Shown here: positions 8,599-43,610 of the stretch, piece after piece
Numbering within the stretch: the stretch's first letter is position 1
How the letters are laid out: each line of letters begins with the position of its first letter
Assembly: GCA_964449265.1 (NCBI GenBank)
Contig: CAYVAG010000001.1
Span: forward strand, 19,717-83,716
DNA from: an uncultured Candidatus Peribacteria bacterium
Lineage (GTDB): Bacteria; Patescibacteriota; Gracilibacteria; BD1-5; UBA2023
Direction: 5' to 3'
DNA: 64,000 nucleotides
Position numbers and translations under genes: made by a program
The notes under the pieces: model-generated
What the model saw: only the letters and a program-made list of their open reading frames with translations
What the model was told of the DNA's origin: nothing
Database searches by the model: none

Positions 8599-9861
8599 AT
8601 GCCCAATACTTCCATAGAACTTCTCAAAGATCAGATCTATAAATGAGAAAACATCTGACAAATCTGTGATCTTATGATCATCGGGGCAGTAGAGATGGGG
8701 TCATCAGATATCCATATCGAACCCCTGACCAATATTGTCAGACTCAGGTATCGTATAGATGGAGAGCTTCGAGAGGTTCTCGAATACCAGACATTTCTCC
8801 ATCAGCAGGTCGTCGCGAGATTCAAGATCATGTCGAATCTCAAGATCGATGAATCTCGCATACCACAAGACGGTCGTCTCTCTACAGTTATCAATAATAA
8901 AGCTCTCGACCTTCGTGTCTCAACACTTCCTACAGTTCACGGTGAAAAGATAGTGATGCGTATCGTAGATAAATCAAAAAAAATTCCCGATCTCATGGAC
9001 CTCGGTATCGAATGACACAATAAAGTGCTCCTCGAAAAAGCCCTAGCCCTACCAAATGGAATCATCCTCACTTCATGACCAACAGGTTCGGGTAAGTCGA
9101 CCACACTCTACTCATGCTTATCGAATCTCAATAAGCCTGATGTGAATATCATGACTCTCGAGGATCCAGTGGAAAGCCAAATCGATGGACTTAATCAGTC
9201 TCAGATGTTTCCAGATATTGGATATAACTTTGCCTACGGACTCCGTACAGCTCTTCGTCAAGATCCAGATATCATTATGGTATGAGAAATTCGTGATCAC
9301 GAGACGATCAACGTCGCGATCGAAGCAGCTCTGACAGGTCACCTCGTAGTATCGACGATACATACGAACTCAGCAGCCGAAACGCTCACTCGTATATTGA
9401 ATATGGGAATTCCCGCATTTCTTCTCCCTGCTTCGATCAATGCCATCATCGCACAACGACTCATCAGAAAACTCTGTCAACACTGCAAAAAACCAGTTCC
9501 CATGAATATGCTCGATGCTCATCTAAAGGGTCGAGTAGAAAAGGCACTCAAACGTACAGCAAAAGAAGAGCTTCTCTCTCGTATCTCTCCTGACATTTTA
9601 AAAAATCCCATATTTTATGAACCAGTAGGATGCCCAGAATGCGAAAATATCGGGTACAAAGGACGAGTTGGTATTTATGAAATTCTAGAAATTACTAACA
9701 GTGTGAAAAAGCTTATCATCGATGGTGCCAGTGCTGTGATCATCAATGAGGCTGCTATCGATGATGGGATGACTTCACTCGAGCAAGATGGTATCATAAA
9801 AGCGCTTAATGGGCGAACATCTCTAGAAGAAGTCTACGCCGCAGCAAAGGAAAACGCATAA
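8599..9861 (+). CDS. pilB: type IV pilus / T2SS assembly ATPase (PilB/GspE family), short form
   Basis: Walker A LTS-[TGA]-PTGSGKST, Asp box/Walker B DPDIIMV-[TGA]-EIRD, His box [12 protein letters not shown]. Tetracysteine CQHC...CPEC is typical of assembly ATPases. Confidence 0.9.
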
Positions 9862-9899
9862 ACAATTATCCATAAGAGGTACCTCTTAAATTTATACAT

Positions 9900-11045
9900 A
9901 TGGCCAATCAAGCATCAGACATCGTCATTCTCGATATACAGGAATGACAGGAAGTGAAAACACAGGAATCCTACTTCATGTATCTCAAGAATTTTCTCTT
10001 TAAGGCAGGGAGTGTAAATTTGAGACAGAAGGTGATATTTTTCCGTATCATGGCAACGATGGTAAATGCCAGCCTGACGGTACTCAAGAGTCTGAATGCT
10101 CTCAAAAAACAGGAAAAAGATAAAGGAATGATCAAGTTCTATACATTTATGATAGAACGCGTACAATGAGGAAGAACCATGCATGAAGCGCTTGCTGAGT
10201 ACTACGGATCTTTCTGAGATGCAGAAATCTCTATCATCGAAGCTGGGGAACGTACTGGTAAGCTTAACCAGGCACTTCTCCAGATCGCAGATCAAACAGA
10301 AAAAGTAGATTCTATCACGAGAAAAATCAAAGGAGCCATGACCTACCCTCTTCTTTTGATTGTTGGTATGGCAGCCTGTGTGACAGTACTTATGGTGAAG
10401 GTAATCCCTGTGCTTACAGGATTCTTCGGAGACAAAGATAAGCTTCCATCAGCAACAAAACTCATTCTCAACACCAGTGAAGCGTTCCAGAACAACTGGT
10501 TCTATATAACGGTAATTTTGGGTATAGCCTATGTGCTTGTATCTGTATGGAAAAAAACAAAATCAGGAAAGTACCGTTGGGATTCCTTAGTCCTGAAGAT
10601 GCCCATTTTCGGACCGCTTCTTCGAAAAGTTATCCTTTCACGATTTGCTCGTGTATTCTCGAATCTTATCGGAAGTGGTGTGTCAGTTATCGAAGCAATC
10701 CGTATTGTGGCGAGTGCTGTATGAAACGAAGTATATCACCAGCGCCTTCTCCTCTTACGAAACGATGTAAAAAATGGTATGAAAATGGCGGAATCTCTCG
10801 AAGATGATATCCTGTTTCCTGATCTTCTCGTTTCACTTCTGAGAGTAGGAGAAGAGACAGCCCAAATCGGTGAAACTATCCTGAAAATTGCCGATTTCTA
10901 CGATGAAGAAGTAGATATAGCCATAGGTGGTATCCAGAAAATGATCGAACCGATCATCCTTGCGGTGATGGCGGTGGTGATCTGATTCATCGCCGTTGGT
11001 ATATTCCAGCCGATCATGAACCTCGCAGGAACGTTGTCGGGCTAA
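9900..11045 (+). CDS. pilC: type IV pilus / T2SS platform protein (PilC/GspF family)
   Basis: Track ORFs 9954.., 10338.. and 10779.. share one frame joined by TGA. Duplicated GspF-type repeats (EAGERTGKLNQAL... / RVGEETAQIGETIL) and three TM segments. Confidence 0.88.
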
Positions 11046-26294: not shown

Positions 26295-27419
26295 ATGAAT
26301 AAGGATTTCTGGAAACAACTTGCCGAAAAATGACCGATCGTCGCACTCGCTCCGATGGATGGTTACTGTGATAGTCCATACCGCCAGATCGTGAAAAGGA
26401 TAGCGCCCGAAGTGGTGGTTTTTAGTGAATTTTACTCAGCAGATGGACTCGTCCACTCGAAAGACCTCCAGAAGAAGGCGCTCACACACGATCCAAGTGA
26501 ATATCCTCTCATCATCCAGATCTTCGGAAAAGACCCAGAAATGTTCCGTGAAGCCGCGAAAATCATCGAAGGATACGGAATCACAGGGATAGACATAAAC
26601 ATGGGGTGTCCCGCAAAGAAAGTCGTAAAAAGTGGACATGGATCGAGCCTCATGATCAATCGTGATACCGCATTTCGTATCGTAGAAGAGATGTCGAAAG
26701 CTGTAAAGATACCCGTATCGGTGAAGACACGCCTCGGATGGGAAAATCCAGAACTGCTCGTGGATTTCGTGAAAGGACTCGAAAATGCATGAGCCAATCT
26801 CATCACGGTGCACGGTCGCACTTATAAACAGGCATTTACTGGTAAGGCTGATTTTACGGGAATATATGACCTCAAGCAACATGTGAATATTCCCGTGATC
26901 TGTAATGGTGATGTCATGAGTTATGAGGATGGGGTACTGAAAATCGTGCACCCGGAGAATCGTTCCCGTCATCGCGAGGAACGAAGCAATCCAGGAACCT
27001 GGATTGCTTCGTCATCCACCACAGAAACAGGTGGACTCCTCGCAATGACGGAACCAAAAAACCTCGACGGATTCATGATTGGTCGAGCATCATTCGGTAA
27101 TCCTTGGTGTTTTCTCCCTGGTGGATATGAGCCAACATTCGAAGAAATCCTCACTACCATGAGTGAACATGGGAAGCTTCTCTGGCAATGGAAAGAAAGA
27201 AAAGGCATGATGGAAGCTCGCAAACACCTCGTACAGTATCTCCATGGATTCCCTGGGGTGAAAGAATACCGAAGTGAGCTCGTCCACGTAGAGGGTGTCG
27301 AAGATATAGAAAAGGTCATAGCAAAAATCAGGCTCGAACATCCGACGCTCCTCGGAGAAAAAATTTCCTCATATAATCCAGAGAGCGCTATGACCGTCTG
27401 GGGTTGTGGAACTGACTAA
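26295..27419 (+). CDS. dus: tRNA-dihydrouridine synthase (Dus family) carrying an in-frame insertion
   Basis: LAPMDGYCDSPYR, IDINMGCPAKKV, VKTRLGW, ITVHGRT, ICNGDV, MIGRASFGNPWCF. Two in-frame TGA. About 32 extra residues lie between NGD and MIGR. Confidence 0.88.
26966..27051. repeat. structured palindromic element inserted in frame in dus
   Basis: Outer arms CCGTCATCGCGAGGA / TCCTCGCAATGACGG (one mismatch) enclose a perfect 15-bp hairpin ACGAAGCAATCCAGG-AA-CCTGGATTGCTTCGT and a small hairpin CCACC-N9-GGTGG. Confidence 0.8.
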
Positions 27420-28549
27420 GGATGGAATATATTCTCATCATAACTATGGGGGAAGACTCGTACTTTCGCCTCAGGAAAGTGAGCTCGTATGTGTGATGCA
27501 AGAAATGGGGAAAATACTATATGCTCTGTACCACGAGGAAGAAGGTAGCGAATCAGACATATGTACCACCACTTGAACCATGCAACACTCGCCTTGGTAA
27601 AACTCAATCCTCTAAGAAAACTCCAGAGACAAGGATTCCCAGGAATTTCTCTTTCGAGAGTGATATCCTGAGGAAATGGTGCAATCAGCCCGACATCATG
27701 ATGAGAGAGATAGACATGAGTACTTGGATTTTTTTTTACATACTTCGCTACCGCAGAAACTCCCCATGGTCAGACATAGCGGAGAATAGAGTGCATCCAT
27801 ATGGCATCAGGATGAGTTTTTTCTAGCACGTGAGAAAGTCTAGTGCCTCTCCAAAAAGCAAAAACCGAGAAGATAAACATAATACGCCTCTTCCATGGGG
27901 TCGTCTTACCAGGATAAGAGAAGCATGCTACTTCCCTTCCTAGGGATATAAGTGCATGACTTACTGACTCTACATAGTATTCGGCTCATCCGATACGATC
28001 ACGGTAATCGTGAACGAGCAAAATCTTACGCTCACTCGCGAACAGAGTATCGAGAGATGCTCTCCAGGAATTATAGTTATAGAGTGAGACATCTATAAGA
28101 GGTAGATCTTGAGTACTATATTTCTCCAGCATGCTTAGGAGAGATATTACGGGATTTTTCGCATCGAGAGCGAGTTCATCTGGAATGAGTGAAGCAAGTC
28201 ATCCTTTCTGAAAGCCAATCACAGGAACACCGCAAGCAAGTGACTCGAGCGCTGTGAGTCCAAATGTCTCGAGAAATCTCGATGGCATGAAGAGAAAATC
28301 ACTCTCACGATAGAGTGAAGCGAGTTCCTGAGGAGAGATCTTTCCGAGGTACTGTACAGATGGATATATACGAGTCAATTCTCGGATCTCTTCCTCATAG
28401 AGTCCATCAGAGGTGATGGTCCATGAAACTTGGTCTCGAAGAGTATCATGAAGTGCTATTTTTTCTATAGCCTCTATGAGAATATCCACTCATTTCTCGA
28501 GGACAAGCCGGGAAGCAAAAAGGATATGTATCTCTTTAGGGTTTGGCAT
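27416..28549 (-). CDS. circularly permuted GT4/GT-B glycosyltransferase (C-terminal-type half first, N-terminal-type half second)
   Basis: One 377-aa frame, checked codon by codon, with four TGA. Residues 1 to about 125: HILFASRLVLEK-G-VDILIEAI...FMPSRFLETFGLTALESLACGVPVIGF. Residues about 170 to 377: RKILLVHDYRDRIGGAEYYVESVSHALISLGREV...VRVFPHSYDENIFHP-stop. Confidence 0.75.
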
Positions 28550-29867
28550 GAGGTTTTTCTATAGGTGCGAGAAAGAGTCCAAGTATGAGAAATAGCGTAA
28601 GTGCAACATGAGATGATTCAAAAGTATGTAAGAAAAGATTCATGGTTAATATAGCAGTAAACATTCCAAGAATGATGATATGTCGAGGCCAGAGACCATA
28701 GAGTATGAGTCCCATAAGTGAACTAAAGGCTAGAAATCACAATATTCCTCATTCGATGAGCTGTTGGATATACCAACTTTCTGGAATATATTTTTTATCG
28801 AGTTCTTCGATCTCACTCCGAGGTTTGAGTGCAAGATTTTCCAAGTATCGGTATGCTGGACCGGCACTTCAGAGTCAGTGTCAGAAAGGATTTTCGAGAA
28901 AACGCTCCATTCCTATTTTCATACGTTCCGCATGTCAGTTTGTCGATCATCCTCGAGTGATAAGGGCAGCCATGTTTCCAGAATACTGGAAAAATATACC
29001 ACCAATCACAAACACTGTAAGAAAAGTAAGAGCAAGGAATTGTTTCTTGTATTTCTTATAAATTTTTGGAAGTAGGAAAAGTATGATAATACTAAGTCCA
29101 AGGATTAGTCAGATAATAGCACTTCGAGAATAGGTATAAAAAAGGAATACTGCTAATCCGAGGAGTCATCCTCAAATCACAAAATACCAATCTTTATAAT
29201 TCCGGAAGTAGTATGCCAAGACTCCCATATATATCAGAATATAAGCTCCCATCGTATTTGGACCGTCGAGTATTCACTGAAATCTCCGTACATTTGCTCC
29301 ATCGACACCATGAAATATAGTGGGAGGTCATCCAAATTGCCAATTAGAAGGATTCCCAGAGTATCCTACATACCGGAGAAGATCTTCTGAGAATGGCCAT
29401 TTGAGGAGCATACTGATAATGAGCATGATACCTCCTGAGATGAGAAATAACTTGAGATAGTATGCGATCGGTTCACTCAGAAAAGAGCGACCATGATAGA
29501 GAATAAAAAAAATGATAAGAAAAGAAAAATCATACTTCCCCCCATACACCATTCATACAAGTCCTGTGGTGAAGATTGTTATGAGAATCATGATGCCTAT
29601 GTAGAAAAAGAGAGTTATATCATATCGAGACCATAGTATTTTTTTATATCCAGAAATATGAGCCAATACGAGAGTAGCGAGCATGATAAATATAAGAATC
29701 TCTTTGAGAAATGAAATACCTGGTATTCCCACTTTTTGACTAAAAAAAACAGAAAGAATAGTATAAAATGGAAGAAATGCTATAAGAAGTCGCAAGCTCC
29801 AATCAAAATATTTTTCGATACGATACATAGAAGGAAAGATAAAAATGTTCTTGCGAATAATACGCAT
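28536..29867 (-). CDS. O-antigen ligase / polymerase-like (Wzy_C-type) polytopic membrane protein
   Basis: Continuous frame with many TGA. About 10 hydrophobic segments and an external loop GHAERMKIGMERFLENPFGHGLGSAGPAY. Start at ATG 29867 is preferred; ATG 29921 would overlap the divergent ferredoxin gene. The stop overlaps the next gene by 14 nt. Confidence 0.65.
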
Positions 29868-29909: not shown

Positions 29910-30185
29910 ATGAACGAACAAGCCCTAGAAAAACTCAAAAATTGACTCAAAAAACCTCATGTAAATAGTACATGTATCGGGTGTAGTGCGTGTACTGCCA
30001 TATCGGGAAATGTCTTTGAACTCGATGACAATGGACTCTCTCGCGTAAGAAAGTGTGATACCTACGAAGGACAAGACGTGGATGACTCTATCGCTGCTTG
30101 CCCGGTCAATGCAATCAGTTGGCAAGAAATGGATGAAAATGGAGAATATACAAATGGCGTCACTGAGCACATGGATGTAGCCTAG
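29910..30185 (+). CDS. small ferredoxin (single Fe-S cluster type)
   Basis: 91 aa with CIGCSACTAI...AACPVNAI (CxxCxxC...CP). One in-frame TGA; TAG stop. Confidence 0.7.
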
Positions 30186-31408
30186 ACAGTCACTCTTCTT
30201 TTTTTAGAAAACTCATATCCCATTCATGGATTCTTCTCCATATAACGCGATATATTGAGGAGTATACCCACAGCTATCATCAGTGAGATTAGCGAGGATC
30301 ATCCATAACTGACGAAAGGAAGAGTAACTCCAGTAAGGGGAATGACATTAAGATTCACTCAAATATTGATAAACACTTGGACTAAGATCAGACTGCCTAT
30401 GCCGATGGCAAGATTTTTGGCAAATGGGTCTTTCACAAAACGAGCAATCGTGAAAGCCCTATATACAATAGAAAAATAAGCAGTAAGTAGAAGAATAGCT
30501 CAGAGAAATCACAGCTCTTCTACAATCACTGAGAATACAAAATCGCCCTGAACCTCAGGAAGGTAGCCAAATTTTTGTATCGACTTTCCGAATCCCAGAC
30601 CGAAAAAGCCCCCACTTCCAAGCGCTATCAGTCACTGTTTTATCTGATAATCCTTATCATCTGTTTCTTTTTTGGAAAAAAGAGTTTCGTTTTTCTGAAA
30701 AAAGTTATCGATACGCGTAGAGATATAATTGAGCTTGCTCTTATTTTCTCATCATGATCCTATCTTTCCGATCCCATATATCGAAGATGCTCAGACAAGA
30801 CATGTGATAAAGAGAATACTCAGGTAGCGGACGTTCCCTCATCCCATAAAGTAGAGAGCGATAACTACAGGAGCAATGATGAGTATAGATCCGAAATCTG
30901 GTTGGAGAGCAAGGAGAAAAAATATCGCACCAACGATAAAGAAATAAGGAAGAAAGCCTTCCTGAAAATCAGCTAAAAGAGATCGTTTCTTTTTTATAAA
31001 AAAGGCAAGGTATACGAGAAGTCCAAGTTTTGCAAACTCAACGGGTTGTACAGAGGGCAGTCCAGGAATATCGAGCCATCACTTAGAACCATTGTACTCA
31101 ACTCCAAAAATCAATACACCCAATAACGTAGAGAGGGCAAGAACGAGGATCATCTTACTGTACTTCTCGAAAACAGTATAGGAAATCTTCGAGAAAATAA
31201 TAAGGAGTACCACTCCGATAATTACGTGAGCTATATTTCTTGCGAGGAAATAGTAGTTATTGGGTTCAGAAATAATACCTCTACTCACCATCTGAGAGGT
31301 AATCTTAAATGATGGATATACACTCACAGAGCTGATCATGATCATCCCGAATATGACGAGAGCGATCACGATGAATACCAGAGTCGTATCGATAGATTTT
31401 TTATACAT
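30182..31408 (-). CDS. ftsW: SEDS-family peptidoglycan polymerase FtsW/RodA
   Basis: 408-aa polytopic frame. [48 protein letters not shown]-[TGA]-SSL. Confidence 0.88.
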
Positions 31409-31411
31409 ACA

Positions 31412-32047
31412 CTATACCCTTCTTCGCAGAAGAAAGTAAGAAACTGGGATAGCAAGGAGCAGGAGGAAAATAGGATTCATACCAGTGAGAGGAAGCTCTT
31501 CAGTGGGTGTCGGTATTGTTTCTTTTATTGGCTCTTCTTTTACTGGAGCAGGATCTTTTGTTTCAGTTTTCGTCTCTTTTACGATGACGGCAGCAGGATT
31601 TGGGGCAGCGCTCAGAGAAGTACTAAATTTTTTGAGCGGAACAGGAGCACTGAAGTCTTTGAGGGCTTCTGCACCGTCAGTGATAGTAGATCCACTAATT
31701 CCGACAGCAGCGATAGCAGTGATACTATAAGAACCACCTTCTATGAGATCATCTCCGAGTGTGAGATCGACTGCTTCAGGAGCATCAGTGACACCAGTGA
31801 GGATATTGATACGGATAGTACTATTATCAGATTGTTTATTGACCTTCAGGGTAACAGTATCGACCTCCACAGCTTCTGTGAAGACGACTCGGATATGCTG
31901 GTTATCTATAACTTTCACAGTAGCGAGAGATAGGCTTGCTCCTGTAGAAAGGGCTCACGAGCCATCAGTATCTGCTCCAAAAGACATTCCTGAAGAAATC
32001 ATGAGAAACGAAACAAGAGAAATGAGAAGGAGGAAAATATGTTTCAT
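31412..32047 (-). CDS. LPXTG-anchored surface protein
   Basis: Signal peptide MKHIFLLLISLVSFLMISSGMSFG. Ig-like beta-rich middle, Pro/Thr/Lys linker, then LPLTG plus hydrophobic helix plus RRRV-stop. Confidence 0.7.
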
Positions 32048-32100: not shown

Positions 32101-32664
32101 ATGAAAAGGCAATCATTCCCTTCACAATCTGGCTTTACATTATTCGAATTAATGATTGTAATAACAGTTTTTTCGATTTTTGTCTTGATAACCAGTAGTT
32201 TCGACTGGAGACCTCAGACAGATATAGAAAAAGCAGATCGTATGATGATCGTAGTATCGAGCACTCTGCGCACTGAGATGCAGAACATATCTATCGGAAA
32301 GATGCCAAGAAGAGATGGAAAAACTGCAACCACTACATCTATCATTGTTTCTACAGGCGGACTTACTACCACATACAACAGTACTATCCACGGGGTGATA
32401 GGAAGTGGTACATTTCTCTCGCCGTTTTTTGATGGTGATACGAAGTACCTCATACGGAGTGTAACCTGGACGGGAAGTACGACTACTAGTGGGACGACAG
32501 GAACGGGAGATCTCATAATCACACCACAGGGCGTCAGTTTCAGTGGTGCTGGGATCTACGGTTCTGGATATACTCTTCTCGAAGTACGTGTGGGATACAA
32601 TAACGCCACACGTAAGGTAACACTCGATCGAAGAACAGGAAAAATCACTGAGAGTAAGCAATAA
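32101..32664 (+). CDS. type IV prepilin / pseudopilin
   Basis: Class III signal MKRQSFPSQSG|FTLFELMIVITVFSIFVLI (Gly -1, Glu +5), followed by a Thr/Gly-rich globular domain. Confidence 0.85.
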   Translation: MKRQSFPSQSGFTLFELMIVITVFSIFVLITSSFDWRPQTDIEKADRMMIVVSSTLRTEMQNISIGKMPRRDGKTATTTSIIVSTGGLTTTYNSTIHGVIGSGTFLSPFFDGDTKYLIRSVTWTGSTTTSGTTGTGDLIITPQGVSFSGAGIYGSGYTLLEVRVGYNNATRKVTLDRRTGKITESKQ

Positions 32665-40862: not shown

Positions 40863-41855
40863 TTATATTCCACTTATGTCTTCACCTGAAACTATAAGCA
40901 TACGATAATCGAGCAATCACCACTTCCTCATCCACTCAGAAGTACGATAGATATGCTTACCCGTATCAGTATCCCAGACGATTATATGAGAAGGTTTTTC
41001 TATAGGTCAGAGATATCCGAGGAGGAGAAACGCATGTTCTCCAGAAAGTCATGTGATAGATTTACCAAGAGGGGTCGTCCATGAAATAGTCCGCTCTTCT
41101 ACTGGTCGATCACACTTGTTTCTTCCAGGAAGGGGGAGAAATCGGAGAATATAATTATCTACTTTTTCTACGAGTCCATCCTCATCAATTGGTGTAGTAC
41201 ACCAGTCTCACCAGAGAATGATGTGACTACCTGCACTCAGAGATTCGAGAGCAGATTTCATACGATCGCGGGGAAGGAGATCTCATGAAGTCATGCTATT
41301 GGAAACCTCAGATGCGATACCTCTATCCTGGAGAAAAAGAGCAAGAGGTGCCTCGTAGATACCATATCCTGTGACAAGTCTCTGGGCTCAGTGATATGAT
41401 CCGACGAATTCTTTTTCTGGATCTCACCAGATGCCATCACTTGAGAGTTTTCCAGGAAAGACAGGAAGTGAAGCGATAATAGTATCTTCCGAAATAGGCT
41501 TCCTCGTGACTGCTTCTATGATCATTCGAAGTGCTGCGATCTCACAGGAAAGCTTATATTTCTGGAGAGTGAGCCTATATCGAGTAGAGACATCGAGGGT
41601 CGGCTTTCGCAGAGCACGTAACCCAAAGCTCGTATAGAGATGCACTGTATCTCGCATGAAAGCTTGTCTCTTTTGGAAGAGTTTTTCTATGATGAGAGTA
41701 TTTTTTTGCCCCTGAACCATCTTCCCAAGTGATACTATAGTAGCGATATTTTTCTCGAATATCTCTGCATCTTTCTCTGGAATATACACTCAAGCAGAAA
41801 GGGAAAAAGGAATACAAAAGAGAATAGTGAGGATGAAGAGTTTTTTGATATACAT
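40863..41855 (-). CDS. secreted C39-like (papain-fold) cysteine peptidase, stand-alone
   Basis: Signal peptide MYIKKLFILTILFCIPFSLSA. Cys context YKLSCEIAALRMIIEAV and His context GEHAFLLLGYLG. Seven in-frame TGA. Starts 3 nt after the ABC gene stop. Confidence 0.55.
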
Positions 41856-41858
41856 AGT

Positions 41859-43610
41859 TTAGAACCCGCTTTGGAGTTCGAGCATCTTATAGTATATTCC
41901 TCACTTTGCAACTAACTCGTCATGATCCCCGCGTTCGACGACTTCTCATCACTCGATCACGATGATATCATCAGACTTCTTCACGGTCTGGAGTCTGTGT
42001 GCTACGATGATCACAGTACGTCCTATGAAGAGCTCATCAAGCGCCTTGGTGATCTGCTCTTCACTGAACGAGTCAAGTGCAGAAGTCGGCTCATCGAGGA
42101 GGATGATCTCGGGATCTTTCAGAAATATCTTTGCGATCGCGAGTCGCTGTTTCTGTCATCATGAGAGTCGCACACCACGTTCTCCGATCTCTGTATCGAG
42201 TCATTTTTCGAGATCGAATACGAAGTCACAGTGAGCAAGACAAAGTGCTTCATGGAGTTTTTCATCTATGTTTATAGGACTCGTCATACCAGATTGTTGT
42301 GCGATAGCACTCACCAGATTTTCTCTTATCGTCGCATCGAACACACTCGGATCCTGCGTGAGGTATCCGATATGCGGATAGTAGGTCTTCAGTGCTGTCT
42401 CACCCAAATTATTTCCCATGACAGATATACTTCATGACTTAGGATGGAGATATCCTGCGATGAGTTTTATGAGAGTCGTCTTGCCTCCGCCACTCGCACC
42501 GACAAAAGCCGTCTTCCTGCCATGAGCAATAGTAAGGGAGAATTTTTCGAATACATTTTTCTCGTCGTATCCATAAGAAATACCATCTATCTGTATATCT
42601 TGTTTCTTCGAGGCAAATACTTTTCCAGAATCGTATCATTTAATAGGAGTGAGGGAATCAAAAGTAGACCAGAGTTGTTCTATATAATCAAATTCTCGGG
42701 TAAATTTACGAAATGTGTCGTAACTTGTACGCATTGTTGTCTCAAGCATAGTAACTATTAGAATATACGTAGAGAAATTCCAGAAGTTAGCCGTATGAGA
42801 AAATATAGCGTTTCAAACAAAGATGTATACCACTATTCTTATTAGAAAGCTAATTCCACGTACACCTATATACATTCATCAGACAGAGTTATCGATAAGA
42901 TAATTCTGTTGTCTCATATCTTCAAGAAAAGCATATATTTGATGTTGCTCTCGCTTTAGTTCATTATTCTGCATATATTCCATCTTAGACATAAAAATCC
43001 TTGCCTGGACACGTGAGTATTCTGTCTCAATTTCTCGACGCTTCTTTCGGGCAGGAATAGTAAAATATCGATCAATATAATATGTTAAAGAGAGTAATAT
43101 ACTCAGTATTAATACTATTAAAATACTATAAATTGGATTATAAAATCAAATTCGAATAATACCATAAGTACTTGCAACTAAGAGAGCTAAGTCTGTACTC
43201 AAAAAATCATGAAAAATATGCATCCATGTATCTTTTCACTTTTTATATATTCCCAAAAATCTTCACGTACCTATTCTCTCGGTTATATTTGGATCAGATT
43301 TTATGAATGCTGGTAAGTATTTATTAGCACAGTAGGTATCGATAGCTACATAAATATTTACCCATCACCAATGTATTGCAATAATTTTAAAGGAAATATA
43401 AATGAGCATGAAAATTCCATACATAATTAAATATTCATGAAATAACGTTGTATTATTTCATTGAATACTCTCGCCTATCTTCTCAAAAAAGTATAAAGAA
43501 CTTATTAAGTAAATACCATCTATAAATCCTTCCGTAAAACTACGAATAAAGGTTGCTTTATCATAAAATACTGGATATAGAAACTGTTTTGTTTTTTCGA
43601 GAAATGTCAT
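41859..43610 (-). CDS. ABC exporter, fused permease plus ATPase (MsbA/type I exporter-like)
   Basis: 583 aa. AT-rich TMD half, Walker [10 protein letters not shown], signature LS-[TGA][TGA]-QKQR, Walker [14 protein letters not shown]-loop AHRL. Confidence 0.88.

What the first reader, a model, noticed from the sequence alone, without database searches (positions are those of the whole stretch)
27416..28549. Circularly permuted GT-B (GT4-type) glycosyltransferase
This is a single uninterrupted 377-codon frame, verified codon by codon, with four TGA-Gly and no TAA/TAG. It begins with the C-terminal Rossmann half of a GT4 enzyme (MPNPKEIHILFASRLVLEKGVDILIEAI…FMPSRFLETFGLTALESLACGVPVIGF). It ends with the N-terminal half (RKILLVHDYRDRIGGAEYYVESVSHALISLGREV…HIVFSPFLASHIRAHFPEAKVRVFPHSYDENIFHP-stop). 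In canonical GT4 proteins the …V.NGVD…F.P segment runs directly into …ILFVGRL..KG. Here that junction is exactly where the polypeptide ends and begins, so the permutation is clean and sits at the interdomain linker. The start overlaps the upstream O-antigen-ligase-like gene by 14 nt, and the stop interlocks with dus. This argues against a trivial mis-join of two genes. I am not aware of described permuted GT-B enzymes. Split versions (Alg13/Alg14-like) are known.
Basis: partly seen in the sequence, partly recalled or inferred. Interest (0 to 1): 0.7.

Follow-up and report, generated by a model that had tools for sequence, protein, structure and literature searches.

The report
Naturally circularly permuted GT-B glycosyltransferase
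This is a real, widely conserved sugar-transferring enzyme gene of candidate-phylum bacteria (Gracilibacteria/SR1) whose two halves are encoded in the reverse of the usual order, an arrangement I could not find described for this enzyme fold.

Summary
On the minus strand, 27416-28549 is one 377-codon frame with four in-frame TGA codons that read as Gly (genetic code 25).

- **Order of the halves.** Pfam and profile-profile comparison place the GT4 C-terminal (donor-binding) half at aa 4-125 and the N-terminal half at aa 175-377. Swapping the halves in silico restores a single colinear alignment to ordinary GT4 enzymes (E 6e-44). The natural termini fall in the canonical interdomain linker.
- **Not an assembly artefact.** 273 fetched relatives have the same C-then-N order, in about 50 GTDB species genomes of Gracilibacteria and Absconditabacteria/SR1. 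In 35 distinct loci a Wzy_C gene lies directly upstream.
- **Structure.** AlphaFold gives pLDDT 95 and pTM 0.90. No PDB chain matches more than one half in sequence order.
- **Catalytic motifs.** R14/K19 and E94-x7-E102 are conserved, so the protein is most likely an active retaining glycosyltransferase. I infer that it works with the translationally coupled Wzy_C membrane protein.
- **Unexpected extra.** A normal-order subfamily in very AT-rich SR1 genomes nests inside the permuted family, which suggests a secondary re-permutation.
- **Precedent.** Nine literature searches found no natural permuted GT-B.

Verdict: a new variant of a known kind, of moderate to high interest.

The parts
27416..28549 (-). 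Whole gene: 377-aa circularly permuted GT4-type (GT-B) glycosyltransferase, genetic code 25, stop TAG
28034..28549 (-). aa 1-172. This is the half that is C-terminal in ordinary GT4: the NDP-sugar-binding Rossmann domain plus the helix (aa 159-169) that I infer, from canonical GT-B, packs back onto the other domain.
   Evidence: Pfam Glycos_transf_1 aa 4-124. hhalign q5-179 to GT4 214-392. Foldseek matches to the C-domains of 2bfw, 3c48, 4nc9 and 3oka, about 150 columns, rmsd 2.2-3. Secondary structure.
27419..28033 (-). aa 173-377. This is the half that is N-terminal in ordinary GT4 (acceptor side). It starts at strand 1 (KILLVHDY) and the Gly loop (IGGAE), and ends after the last strand (VRVFPHSYDENIFHP).
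   Evidence: Pfam Glyco_transf_4 aa 186-371, profile 1-167/170. hhalign q179-380 to GT4 7-206, probability 97.7%. Own GT4 HMM 2-199 to aa 175-377.
28244..28270 (-). E94-x7-E102 (ETFGLTALE), the EX7E signature of retaining GT4/GT5 enzymes. Both Glu residues are invariant in 87 family members.
   Evidence: invariant columns; sequence read
28490..28492 (-). TGA codon 20, read as Gly in the R14..K19-G20 motif (SRLVLEKG). The other in-frame TGAs are at 28199-28201 (codon 117), 27986-27988 (codon 188, in the GGAE loop) and 27770-27772 (codon 260).
28536..28549 (-). 14-nt overlap between the end of the Wzy_C gene and the start of the glycosyltransferase gene; I infer translational coupling
   Evidence: The same adjacency is seen in 35 distinct related loci.
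28536..29867 (-). 443-aa polytopic membrane protein with a Wzy_C domain (O-antigen ligase/polymerase family), directly upstream on the same strand
   Evidence: Pfam Wzy_C, 55.7 bits; conserved neighbour
30182..31408 (-). FtsW/RodA (SEDS) gene, upstream on the same strand and part of the conserved array
   Evidence: Pfam FTSW_RODA_SPOVE, E 5.6e-85; synteny
26295..27419 (+). Convergent tRNA-dihydrouridine synthase (dus) gene whose stop codon interlocks with the glycosyltransferase stop
   Evidence: Pfam Dus, E 3.9e-73. The same convergent pairing is seen in the window's clade and next to the normal-order relative in L083.

Best explanation
The gene encodes a genuine single-chain GT-B glycosyltransferase of the GT4 type (Glycos_transf_1 superfamily) that is naturally circularly permuted.

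**Layout.** The chain starts at the first strand of the nucleotide-sugar-binding domain, which is the C-terminal domain in all described GT4 enzymes. It runs through that domain and the final helix, which I infer crosses over as in canonical GT-B. It then continues without a break into strand 1 of the acceptor-side domain, normally the N-terminal one. It ends just after that domain's last strand, at the relic of the NGVD..F.P motif. The old termini are therefore fused and the new termini lie in what used to be the interdomain linker.

**What is shown.**
- The reversed order and the exact breakpoints.
- Conservation of this order across the TGA-recoded candidate-phylum lineages (Gracilibacteria/BD1-5 and Absconditabacteria/SR1).
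- Conservation of the donor-binding and catalytic motifs (R14, K19, E94-x7-E102, Gly-rich IGGAE loop, H253).
- A confident two-domain structure prediction.

**What is inferred.**
- The two domains still form the usual cleft. They are now joined by one covalent crossing instead of two, so the hinge is half-cut.
- The enzyme is an active retaining transferase. It uses an NDP-sugar and a membrane-associated, probably polyprenyl-phosphate-linked, acceptor. The conserved basic/hydrophobic helices at aa 215-245 and 317-336 would serve as an interfacial membrane patch.
- Its product is handed to the translationally coupled Wzy_C-family membrane protein for polymerisation or ligation onto a cell-envelope acceptor. 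This fits the conserved cell-wall neighbourhood (surface protein, FtsW, Wzy_C, glycosyltransferase; MurE-type ligase nearby).

**Tentative history.** The permutation arose once near the base of the code-25 clade. It was reversed once in a very AT-rich Absconditabacterales subclade, which now has the normal N-then-C order.
For: **Order and breakpoints**
- Pfam, my own GT4 HMM and hhalign of native versus de-permuted profiles all agree.

**Real gene, not an artefact**
- About 94 clusters at 90% identity show 35-70% identity over 96-100% of the length. Some lie on contigs up to 1.1 Mb.
- 182 representatives of 50% clusters score E<=1e-30, nearly all colinear over their full length.
- 273 C-N architectures were found among 337 fetched proteins.
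- 25 of the 28 labelled loci examined carry one complete continuous code-25 ORF with C then N. Two (L043, L020) have incomplete 5' ends and one (L052) has a frame change.

**Code 25**
- Shown. TGA read-through also occurs in L002.

**Catalytic residues**
- S90, F92, E94, F96, L98 and E102 are invariant. R14, K19 and H253 are at least 90% conserved.

**Structure**
- AF2 gives pLDDT 95.2 and pTM 0.90, with alternating strand/helix elements in both halves.
- Foldseek aligns only the donor half (about 150 columns, TMq about 0.35) to GT4/GT5 structures.
- The AF2 model of the normal-order relative P0243 aligns at full length to MshA, PimA, BshA, PglH and HepE (TMq 0.54-0.59).

**Context**
- The array FtsW, Wzy_C, glycosyltransferase, then convergent Dus, with Pdf and a Mur ligase beyond, recurs in the window's clade. 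Wzy_C lies directly upstream in 35 distinct loci, down to 27% GT identity.

**Reversal**
- The normal-order clade is monophyletic in 100/100 NJ bootstraps.
- It nests with a subset of permuted proteins, excluding the window clade and the outgroup, in 93/100 bootstraps. With Dayhoff-6 recoding the figure is 98/100.
- The host of L083 is assigned to Absconditabacteria by its MiaB.
- L083 keeps the convergent Dus neighbour.
Against: - No enzymatic data exist, and neither donor nor acceptor can be named.
- The N-half match to Pfam Glyco_transf_4 is only just above the gathering score (28.9 vs 28.5). It falls below when TGA is rendered as W (21.7).
- By my reading of the ORF translations, which were not scanned against Pfam, the 64-kb window holds no initiating phosphoglycosyl transferase or flippase. 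An HMM scan found no second GT4-like gene. The pathway assignment therefore rests on the Wzy_C neighbour alone.
- In SR1-type loci no Wzy_C was detected within 6 kb.
- The reversal scenario rests on neighbour-joining trees with a very distant outgroup and strong compositional differences (FYMINK fraction 0.48 vs 0.32).
Confidence: 0.85

Rival explanations
1. Assembly artefact: a mis-join or a collapsed tandem duplication of an ordinary GT4 gene produced an apparent C-then-N frame.
For: None found. The idea was reasonable a priori for a single metagenomic contig.
Against: - The same order, length (about 375-390 aa) and breakpoints occur in hundreds of independent assemblies from NCBI, ENA, JGI and Logan.
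- They also occur in about 50 species-representative genomes.
- Synteny is conserved on both sides.
- The frame cannot extend upstream, and both gene ends overlap neighbouring genes.
Confidence: 0.01
2. Same product, different origin. The order arose by fission of an ancestral GT4 gene into two half-genes (as in Alg14/Alg13 or EpsE/EpsF), rearrangement, and re-fusion in the order C-half then N-half. The alternative is tandem duplication followed by trimming of both ends.
For: Split GT-B enzymes exist, with the break at the same interdomain position (PMC4973528). No duplication intermediates (N-C-N-C, C-N-C) were seen among 337 proteins, and no tandem copies in the loci.
Against: - No lineage with separate half-genes was found either. 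The C-only and N-only database entries are most simply explained as fragments of TGA-truncated gene calls or contig ends, for example the 290-aa JGI calls that begin at an internal Met. I did not check each one.
- The apparent second switch back to N-C in SR1 is more simply explained by duplication and trimming, which can toggle the order in either direction.
Confidence: 0.25
3. The protein is a catalytically dead or repurposed GT-B, for example a scaffold or regulator of the Wzy_C protein or of FtsW, rather than an active transferase.
For: The N-half is very divergent from generic GT4 (Pfam E about 1e-6). No NCBIfam model comes near its cut-off. The hinge is cut.
Against: The residues that bind the nucleotide-sugar and define retaining GT4 chemistry are invariant or nearly so across the family, down to 28% identity: R14, K19, E94, E102, the Gly loop and H253. 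A dead enzyme would be expected to lose them.
Confidence: 0.08
4. The functional unit is a domain-swapped dimer. With the interdomain linker cut, the donor half of one chain pairs with the acceptor half of another chain, instead of forming an intramolecular cleft.
For: Only one covalent crossing remains between the halves (inferred). Split GT-Bs show that the halves can assemble in trans (PMC4973528).
Against: The AF2 monomer model has pTM 0.90, which indicates a confidently placed intramolecular domain pair. The helix preceding the acceptor half is joined to strand 1 by only about 5 residues (aa 170-174), which favours packing in cis.
Confidence: 0.07

Closest known systems
Ordinary retaining GT4/GT5 GT-B glycosyltransferases (MshA 3c48/3c4q, PimA 2gej/4nc9, PimB' 3oka, BshA 3mbo, PglH/WlaC 6eji, P. 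abyssi GlgA 2bfw/2bis)
   Same: - Both Rossmann-type halves are homologous (hhalign probabilities 99.9% and 97.7%).
- The R..K-G and EX7E motifs, the Gly-rich loop and a His after strand 4 are all present.
- The donor half superposes at rmsd 2.2-3 A over about 150 residues.
   Different: - The order of the halves along the chain is reversed.
- The interdomain linker is replaced by free termini.
- The old C-terminal helix runs directly into the old N-terminal strand.
- No PDB chain aligns over more than one half in sequence order (best TMq 0.36).
Normal-order sister subfamily in very AT-rich Absconditabacterales (P0243, P0253, P0264-P0285; loci L083-L085)
   Same: - It carries the family-specific acceptor half (106-126 bits to the family N-half HMM for the two members listed, P0243 and P0253; >60 bits was required for all 24) and the same motifs: HHD/YHDLG, QIP, (L)VPS.F.ETFGLSA.E.
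- It is also TGA-recoded.
- L083 keeps the convergent Dus neighbour.
   Different: - The order is N then C, in 407-425 aa.
- Its AF2 model aligns at full length to GT4 structures.
- No Wzy_C gene lies next to it.
Split GT-B enzymes: Alg14/Alg13 and bacterial EpsE/EpsF (MurG-like, GT28/GT1 type)
   Same: The chain is interrupted at the boundary between the two Rossmann halves. This shows that a continuous interdomain linker is not required for GT-B function (PMC4973528).
   Different: - Those are two polypeptides, or, in excavates and some amoebozoa, a fusion named Alg14-Alg13, which is the normal order.
- They belong to a different GT-B family.
- Here there is one polypeptide in reversed order, and Pfam reports no Alg14 or Glyco_tran_28_C match.
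GH70 glucansucrases (streptococcal/lactobacillal 'glucosyltransferases')
   Same: A textbook natural circular permutation in a carbohydrate-active enzyme, relative to GH13 (PMC11046441).
   Different: A (beta/alpha)8 barrel of a glycoside-hydrolase clan, not a Leloir GT-B enzyme. The permutation lies within one barrel rather than exchanging two domains.

Membership tests
GT4-type GT-B glycosyltransferase (Pfam Glycos_transf_1 + Glyco_transf_4; CAZy GT4-like) | Nucleotide-sugar-binding Rossmann domain matching Glycos_transf_1 above the gathering score | tested here: met
   74.2 bits vs cut-off 26.4, aa 4-124; 87/87 family members match
GT4-type GT-B glycosyltransferase (Pfam Glycos_transf_1 + Glyco_transf_4; CAZy GT4-like) | Second Rossmann domain of the Glyco_transf_4 type | tested here: met
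   The Pfam match is marginal: 28.9 bits vs cut-off 28.5, covering profile 1-167/170. Only 28/87 members match at E<=0.01. Profile-profile comparison is clear: probability 97.7%, E 1.9e-12.
GT4-type GT-B glycosyltransferase (Pfam Glycos_transf_1 + Glyco_transf_4; CAZy GT4-like) | Donor-binding and catalytic motifs of retaining GT4 (Arg/Lys pair before helix 1 of the donor domain; Glu-x7-Glu) | tested here: met
   R14 and K19 are at least 90% conserved. E94 and E102 are invariant in 87 sequences. They align to the GT4 consensus in hhalign.
GT4-type GT-B glycosyltransferase (Pfam Glycos_transf_1 + Glyco_transf_4; CAZy GT4-like) | Domain order along the chain: acceptor (N) domain, linker, donor (C) domain, C-terminal cross-over helix | tested here: not met
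   The order is reversed. This is the point of the finding.
GT4-type GT-B glycosyltransferase (Pfam Glycos_transf_1 + Glyco_transf_4; CAZy GT4-like) | Three-dimensional GT-B fold: two facing Rossmann domains with the active site in the cleft | tested here: inconclusive
   AF2 gives pLDDT 95 and pTM 0.90, with two alpha/beta halves. Foldseek respects sequence order and can align only one half. An order-independent superposition was not possible with these tools.
GT4-type GT-B glycosyltransferase (Pfam Glycos_transf_1 + Glyco_transf_4; CAZy GT4-like) | Retaining glycosyl transfer from an NDP-sugar | not testable with these tools
   Needs an enzyme assay
Circular permutant of a known fold | Both segments homologous to the parent family but in swapped order, and a single colinear alignment restored after in-silico de-permutation | tested here: met
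   The native profile gives two hits in swapped order. The de-permuted profile gives one hit, q3-351 to t7-354, E 6.4e-44.
Circular permutant of a known fold | Old termini joined without interruption; new termini map to a surface loop or linker of the parent | tested here: met
   The alignment is continuous across aa 160-185, with no stop codon there. The new termini align to the GT4 interdomain linker (NGVD..F.P | ..vGRL..KG).
Circular permutant of a known fold | The arrangement is inherited and under selection, not a one-off | tested here: met
   273 C-N proteins; about 50 species genomes
Split GT-B (Alg13/Alg14, EpsE/EpsF) | Two separate polypeptides, MurG-like (Glyco_tran_28_C / Alg14) halves | tested here: not met
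   A single ORF with no stop at the junction. Pfam reports no Alg14 or Glyco_tran_28_C match.
Wzy-dependent glycan assembly/ligation locus | Wzy_C-family polymerase or ligase encoded with the glycosyltransferase | tested here: met
   A Wzy_C gene overlaps the GT start by 14 nt. The adjacency is conserved in 35 distinct loci.
Wzy-dependent glycan assembly/ligation locus | Initiating phosphoglycosyl transferase and Wzx-type flippase in the same locus | tested here: inconclusive
   None is recognisable among the window's ORFs by my reading of their translations. An HMM scan found no second GT4-like gene. Not all ORFs were scanned against Pfam.

The most novel reading that the evidence does not exclude
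This would be the first recognised natural circular permutation of the GT-B glycosyltransferase fold.

- It was fixed near the base of the TGA=Gly candidate-phylum clade (Gracilibacteria plus Absconditabacteria).
- It was later switched back to the normal order in one AT-rich SR1 subclade.
- Together these form a natural two-way experiment. It would show that the interdomain hinge/linker of GT-B enzymes is dispensable and that the fold can toggle its chain topology while keeping its catalytic machinery.
Probability: 0.5. Interest if true: 0.72.

Novelty: new variant of a known kind. Interest (0 to 1): 0.62.

Why it matters
**Fold rules.** GT-B is one of the two main folds of Leloir glycosyltransferases. 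Every described family is written as acceptor domain, linker, donor domain, with catalysis coupled to hinge closure about the linker and the C-terminal helix. A large natural family in which the linker is replaced by free termini would show that one covalent crossing is enough. It would also give ready-made templates for engineering permuted, split or sensor-inserted glycosyltransferases.

**Annotation.** The family is currently hidden in databases. It is named only 'glycosyltransferase' or 'hypothetical'. It is often mistranslated with TGA as Trp, or truncated at TGA.

**Evolution.** The apparent switch back to the normal order, if confirmed, is a rare documented case of reversible circular permutation.

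**Biology.** The tight link to a Wzy_C membrane protein and FtsW points to an unstudied envelope glycan in Gracilibacteria.

Tried and rejected
- **Table-11 translation.** Reading the plus strand or the minus strand with table 11 gives a broken frame. This was resolved by code 25.
- **PDB sequence search.** The permuted family profile finds only the donor half. The normal-order subfamily profile finds nothing.
- **NCBIfam.** Only partial matches to the donor half, far below every cut-off. For the Wzy_C protein there was only a meaningless IctB hit.
- **AF2 with the Gly version.** The database version with W at the four TGA sites was used instead.
- **Duplication intermediates.** None found. 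The 'C-N-N' cases are single N-halves split by insertions, and 'C-C-C' is an unrelated triple GT4.
- **Promoter/terminator scan, 27-32.3 kb.** Counts matched the shuffled expectation.
- **The 314-nt gap between FtsW and Wzy_C.** It holds no counterpart of the small ferredoxin gene seen in L001.
- **Cluster look-up.** It gave no names or taxa for the normal-order proteins. Taxonomy was obtained instead from the neighbouring MiaB.
- **Literature.** Nine searches on permutation, GT-B/GT4, Alg13/14 fusions and Gracilibacteria glycosyltransferases returned nothing on a natural permuted GT-B. The hits concerned GH70, software options, or unrelated proteins.
- **Model coordinates.** They are not exposed to scripts, so no order-independent superposition was possible.
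Full report
**1. What is in the sequence**

The feature lies on the minus strand. With the standard bacterial code, 27416-28549 (-) is broken by four stops. All four are TGA, at codons 20, 117, 188 and 260. The only TAA/TAG is the terminal TAG.

At those four positions the 87-member family alignment contains only G or W. W is how public databases render TGA under code 4.

The frame cannot be extended upstream, because a TAA/TAG lies four codons above the ATG. The ATG overlaps the end of the upstream gene (28536-29867, -) by 14 nt. The TAG stop (27418-27416) interlocks with the TAA stop of the convergent dus gene (27417-27419).

**2. Is the order of the halves really reversed?**

Yes, by three independent profile tests.

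- **Pfam.** Glycos_transf_1, the donor-binding domain that is C-terminal in all ordinary GT4 proteins, covers aa 4-124 (74 bits, cut-off 26.4). Glyco_transf_4, the ordinary N-terminal domain, covers aa 186-371 and matches profile positions 1-167 of 170 (28.9 bits, cut-off 28.5).
- **Own GT4 model.** An HMM I built from 25 ordinary GT4 proteins hits the window protein twice: model 212-328 to aa 5-125 and model 2-199 to aa 175-377.
- **Profile-profile comparison.** hhalign of the family profile against the ordinary GT4 profile gives two separate hits in swapped order: q5-179 to t214-392 (E 2.5e-31) and q179-380 to t7-206 (E 1.9e-12). When I cut every family member after residue 172 and swapped the pieces, I got a single colinear alignment, q3-351 to t7-354 (E 6.4e-44).

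In that last alignment the joined natural termini (...VRVFPHSYDENIFHP | MPN..KEIHILFASRLVLEKG) align without disturbance to the canonical stretch 'i..gVD...F.p ... l.vgrL...KG'. The new termini therefore sit exactly in the canonical interdomain linker. The old termini are fused at aa about 170-175, where the last helix (aa 159-169) runs into strand 1 (KILLVHDY). This is a clean circular permutation in the strict sense.

**3. Artefact or inherited?**

Inherited.

- A word-indexed search found about 94 clusters (at 90% identity) with 35-70% identity over 96-100% of the length, mostly 357-399 aa. Several lie on contigs of 0.1-1.1 Mb.
- An exhaustive HMMER search of 1.84 billion cluster representatives found 182 with E<=1e-30, almost all matched end to end.
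- With separate HMMs for the two halves, 273 of 337 fetched proteins are C-then-N.
- A scan of one genome per GTDB species returned about 50 genomes labelled Gracilibacteria, Absconditabacterales or SR1. These include SR1 human oral taxon HOT-345. Some are labelled 'Peribacteria' or 'Patescibacteria'. In all of them the donor half is followed directly by the acceptor half on the same strand.
- Of the 28 labelled loci I examined under code 25, 25 carry one complete continuous C-then-N ORF. Two (L043, L020) have incomplete 5' ends and one (L052) has a frame change.
- Every lineage I checked reads through TGA.

Many public entries for the family are distorted. TGA is rendered as W, or the protein is truncated at TGA, as in the 290-aa JGI calls that begin at MPSRFLETFGL.

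**4. Structure**

AlphaFold2 with the 87-sequence alignment gives mean pLDDT 95.2 and pTM 0.90. The model has two alpha/beta halves whose strand/helix succession matches the two GT-B Rossmann domains.

Foldseek respects sequence order. Against the PDB it aligns only the donor half: about 150 columns at rmsd 2.2-3 A. The hits are the C-domains of P. abyssi glycogen synthase, MshA, PimA and PimB'. The query-normalised TM-score never exceeds 0.36.

As a control I modelled the normal-order relative P0243 (pLDDT 82, pTM 0.81). It aligns at full length (425-490 columns, TMq 0.54-0.59) to MshA, PglH/WlaC, PimA, BshA and HepE. This contrast is what a circular permutation predicts. It also indicates that no solved structure has this chain topology.

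The statement that a normal cleft forms therefore rests on pTM 0.90 and on homology of both halves, not on a direct test.

**5. Is it likely to be active, and what does it do?**

The residues that define retaining GT4 chemistry are kept. E94 and E102 (the Glu-x7-Glu motif within PSRFLETFGLTALES) are invariant. R14 and K19 (in SRLVLEKG) and H253 are at least 90% conserved. The Gly-rich loop IGGAE follows strand 1 of the acceptor half. That these residues bind the NDP-sugar and line the cleft is established knowledge for PimA, MshA and related GT4 enzymes. It is not something I tested here.

The acceptor half carries strongly conserved basic/hydrophobic helices (TTPWKRRxMFIxSxFAFWRG at aa 215-236, and aa 317-336). 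I interpret these, by analogy with PimA and WaaG, as an interfacial membrane patch. This is inference.

The genomic context is consistent with that reading. On the same strand lie four genes:
- a surface protein with an LPXTG-type sorting signal (31412-32047);
- FtsW/RodA (30182-31408);
- a 443-aa Wzy_C-family membrane protein (28536-29867);
- the glycosyltransferase.

A MurE-type ligase and peptide deformylase lie just beyond dus. The array FtsW, Wzy_C, glycosyltransferase, then convergent Dus recurs in the window's clade. Wzy_C is directly upstream in 35 distinct loci, down to 27% GT identity.

My best reading has three parts:
- the protein is a retaining transferase that adds a sugar to a membrane-bound, probably polyprenyl-phosphate-linked, intermediate;
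- the translationally coupled Wzy_C protein then polymerises that product or ligates it to an envelope acceptor;
- the donor, the acceptor and the final polymer are unknown.

The window holds no second GT4-like gene. By my reading of its ORF translations, which were not scanned against Pfam, it has no recognisable initiating transferase or flippase either. SR1-type loci lack a detectable Wzy_C neighbour.

**6. A consequence of the topology (inference)**

In ordinary GT-B enzymes the two domains are joined twice: by the linker, and by the segment leading to the C-terminal helix that packs back on the N-domain. Here the first joint is replaced by free termini. The second joint is prolonged into the chain, because the helix at aa 159-169 is followed after about 5 residues by strand 1. 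The hinge is thus half-cut. The protein resembles a split GT-B of the Alg14/Alg13 kind that remains tethered through the other crossing.

**7. An unexpected relative**

The exhaustive search also returned two proteins (P0243, P0253) in which the family-specific acceptor half comes first. Searching with P0243 revealed a subfamily of about 25 clusters. They are 407-425 aa long, in normal N-then-C order, and also TGA-recoded. Their next-best relatives are permuted family members, not generic GT4 proteins.

- Their loci have 22-25% GC.
- In L083 the gene is followed by a convergent Dus, the same pairing as in the window.
- The MiaB gene of L083 is closest to those of Candidatus Vampirococcus lugosii and other Absconditabacteria/SR1.

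I built neighbour-joining trees of de-permuted sequences, with W masked and 23 generic GT4 proteins as outgroup.
- The normal-order clade is monophyletic (100/100).
- The permuted plus normal-order set separates from generic GT4 (89/100).
- The permuted proteins are never monophyletic (0/100).
- The normal-order clade groups with a subset of permuted proteins, excluding the window's clade and the outgroup, in 93/100 replicates (61 for the acceptor half alone, 97 for the donor half alone).
- With Dayhoff-6 recoding that figure is 98/100.

With labelled genomes added, the order of branching agrees with taxonomy. Moving outward from the normal-order clade, the tree shows:
- AT-rich permuted proteins;
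- SR1 and Absconditabacterales permuted proteins;
- other Gracilibacteria groups;
- the window's clade near the base.

The most economical reading is one permutation near the base of the code-25 clade and one switch back within Absconditabacterales. I hold this tentatively, for three reasons: the trees are distance trees, the outgroup is remote, and composition differs strongly between clades. No duplication or fission intermediates were found, so the mechanism of either switch is open.

**8. Comparison with what is known**

- **Function-like.** It works like a GT4 retaining transferase.
- **Family membership.** As a family member it meets the domain and motif criteria, but it fails the implicit criterion of domain order.
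- **Not a split GT-B.** It is one polypeptide, not MurG-like, and known Alg14-Alg13 fusions are named in the normal order (PMC4973528).
- **Nearest precedent.** The closest conceptual precedent among carbohydrate-active enzymes is the permuted barrel of GH70 glucansucrases (PMC11046441), which is a different fold.
- **Literature.** Nine full-text searches found no description of a natural permuted GT-B. They covered 8 million open-access papers and 0.35 million preprints. Subscription-only literature is not covered.
- **Curated models.** No NCBIfam model fits the full protein, and public names are only 'glycosyltransferase' or 'hypothetical protein'.

**9. Verdict**

This is a real, ancient and widespread circularly permuted GT-B glycosyltransferase: a new variant of a known kind. 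Interest is moderate to high for glycosyltransferase structure and mechanism and for protein-topology evolution. The possible natural reversal adds to that interest.

Noticed in passing
loci L083 (7001-8233), L084 (7001-8224), L085 (4317-5540); proteins P0243, P0253, P0264-P0285: A normal-order (N-then-C) subfamily in 22-25% GC, TGA-recoded Absconditabacterales-like genomes nests inside the permuted family in NJ trees. This suggests a secondary re-permutation back to the canonical order. In L083 the gene keeps the convergent Dus neighbour.
   Followed up: partly
window, whole (e.g. codons 20, 117, 188, 260 of 27416-28549): The window uses TGA as a sense codon for Gly (code 25). Under code 11, long ORFs (at least 150 aa) cover only about 54% of the window. 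Many public translations of this protein family render TGA as Trp or are truncated at TGA, which hides the architecture.
   Followed up: yes
window 31412-32047 (-): A secreted 211-aa protein with a weak Big_5 Ig-like match. It has a C-terminal LPLTG motif, then a hydrophobic stretch, then RRRV, which reads as a sortase (LPXTG) cell-wall sorting signal. It lies 3 nt upstream of FtsW. A Big_5 protein holds the same position in L001.
   Followed up: partly
window 32101-32664 (+): A type IV pilin-like protein with an N-terminal methylation motif (Pfam N_methyl; ...SGFTLFELMIV...). PilB-like and PilC-like genes appear at about 8599-11045; I recognised those by eye only.
   Followed up: partly
window 26295-27419 (+): The Dus protein is 374 aa, and Pfam matches it in two stretches (the best covers aa 18-212). 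The Dus of L083 is only 310 aa. This suggests an insertion of some tens of residues in the window's clade. Its position was not mapped.
   Followed up: no
window 40863-43610 (-): An ABC transporter with a fused membrane domain (583 aa) lies next to a secreted protein with a weak Peptidase_C39-like match. This may be a peptide-export/processing pair.
   Followed up: no
locus L002 (3520-4530 and 4689-5393): In this 53% GC contig, the Peptidase_M48 and TP_methylase genes are each called as two fragments but are continuous across an in-frame TGA. GC-rich relatives that carry the permuted gene are therefore also TGA-recoded.
   Followed up: yes
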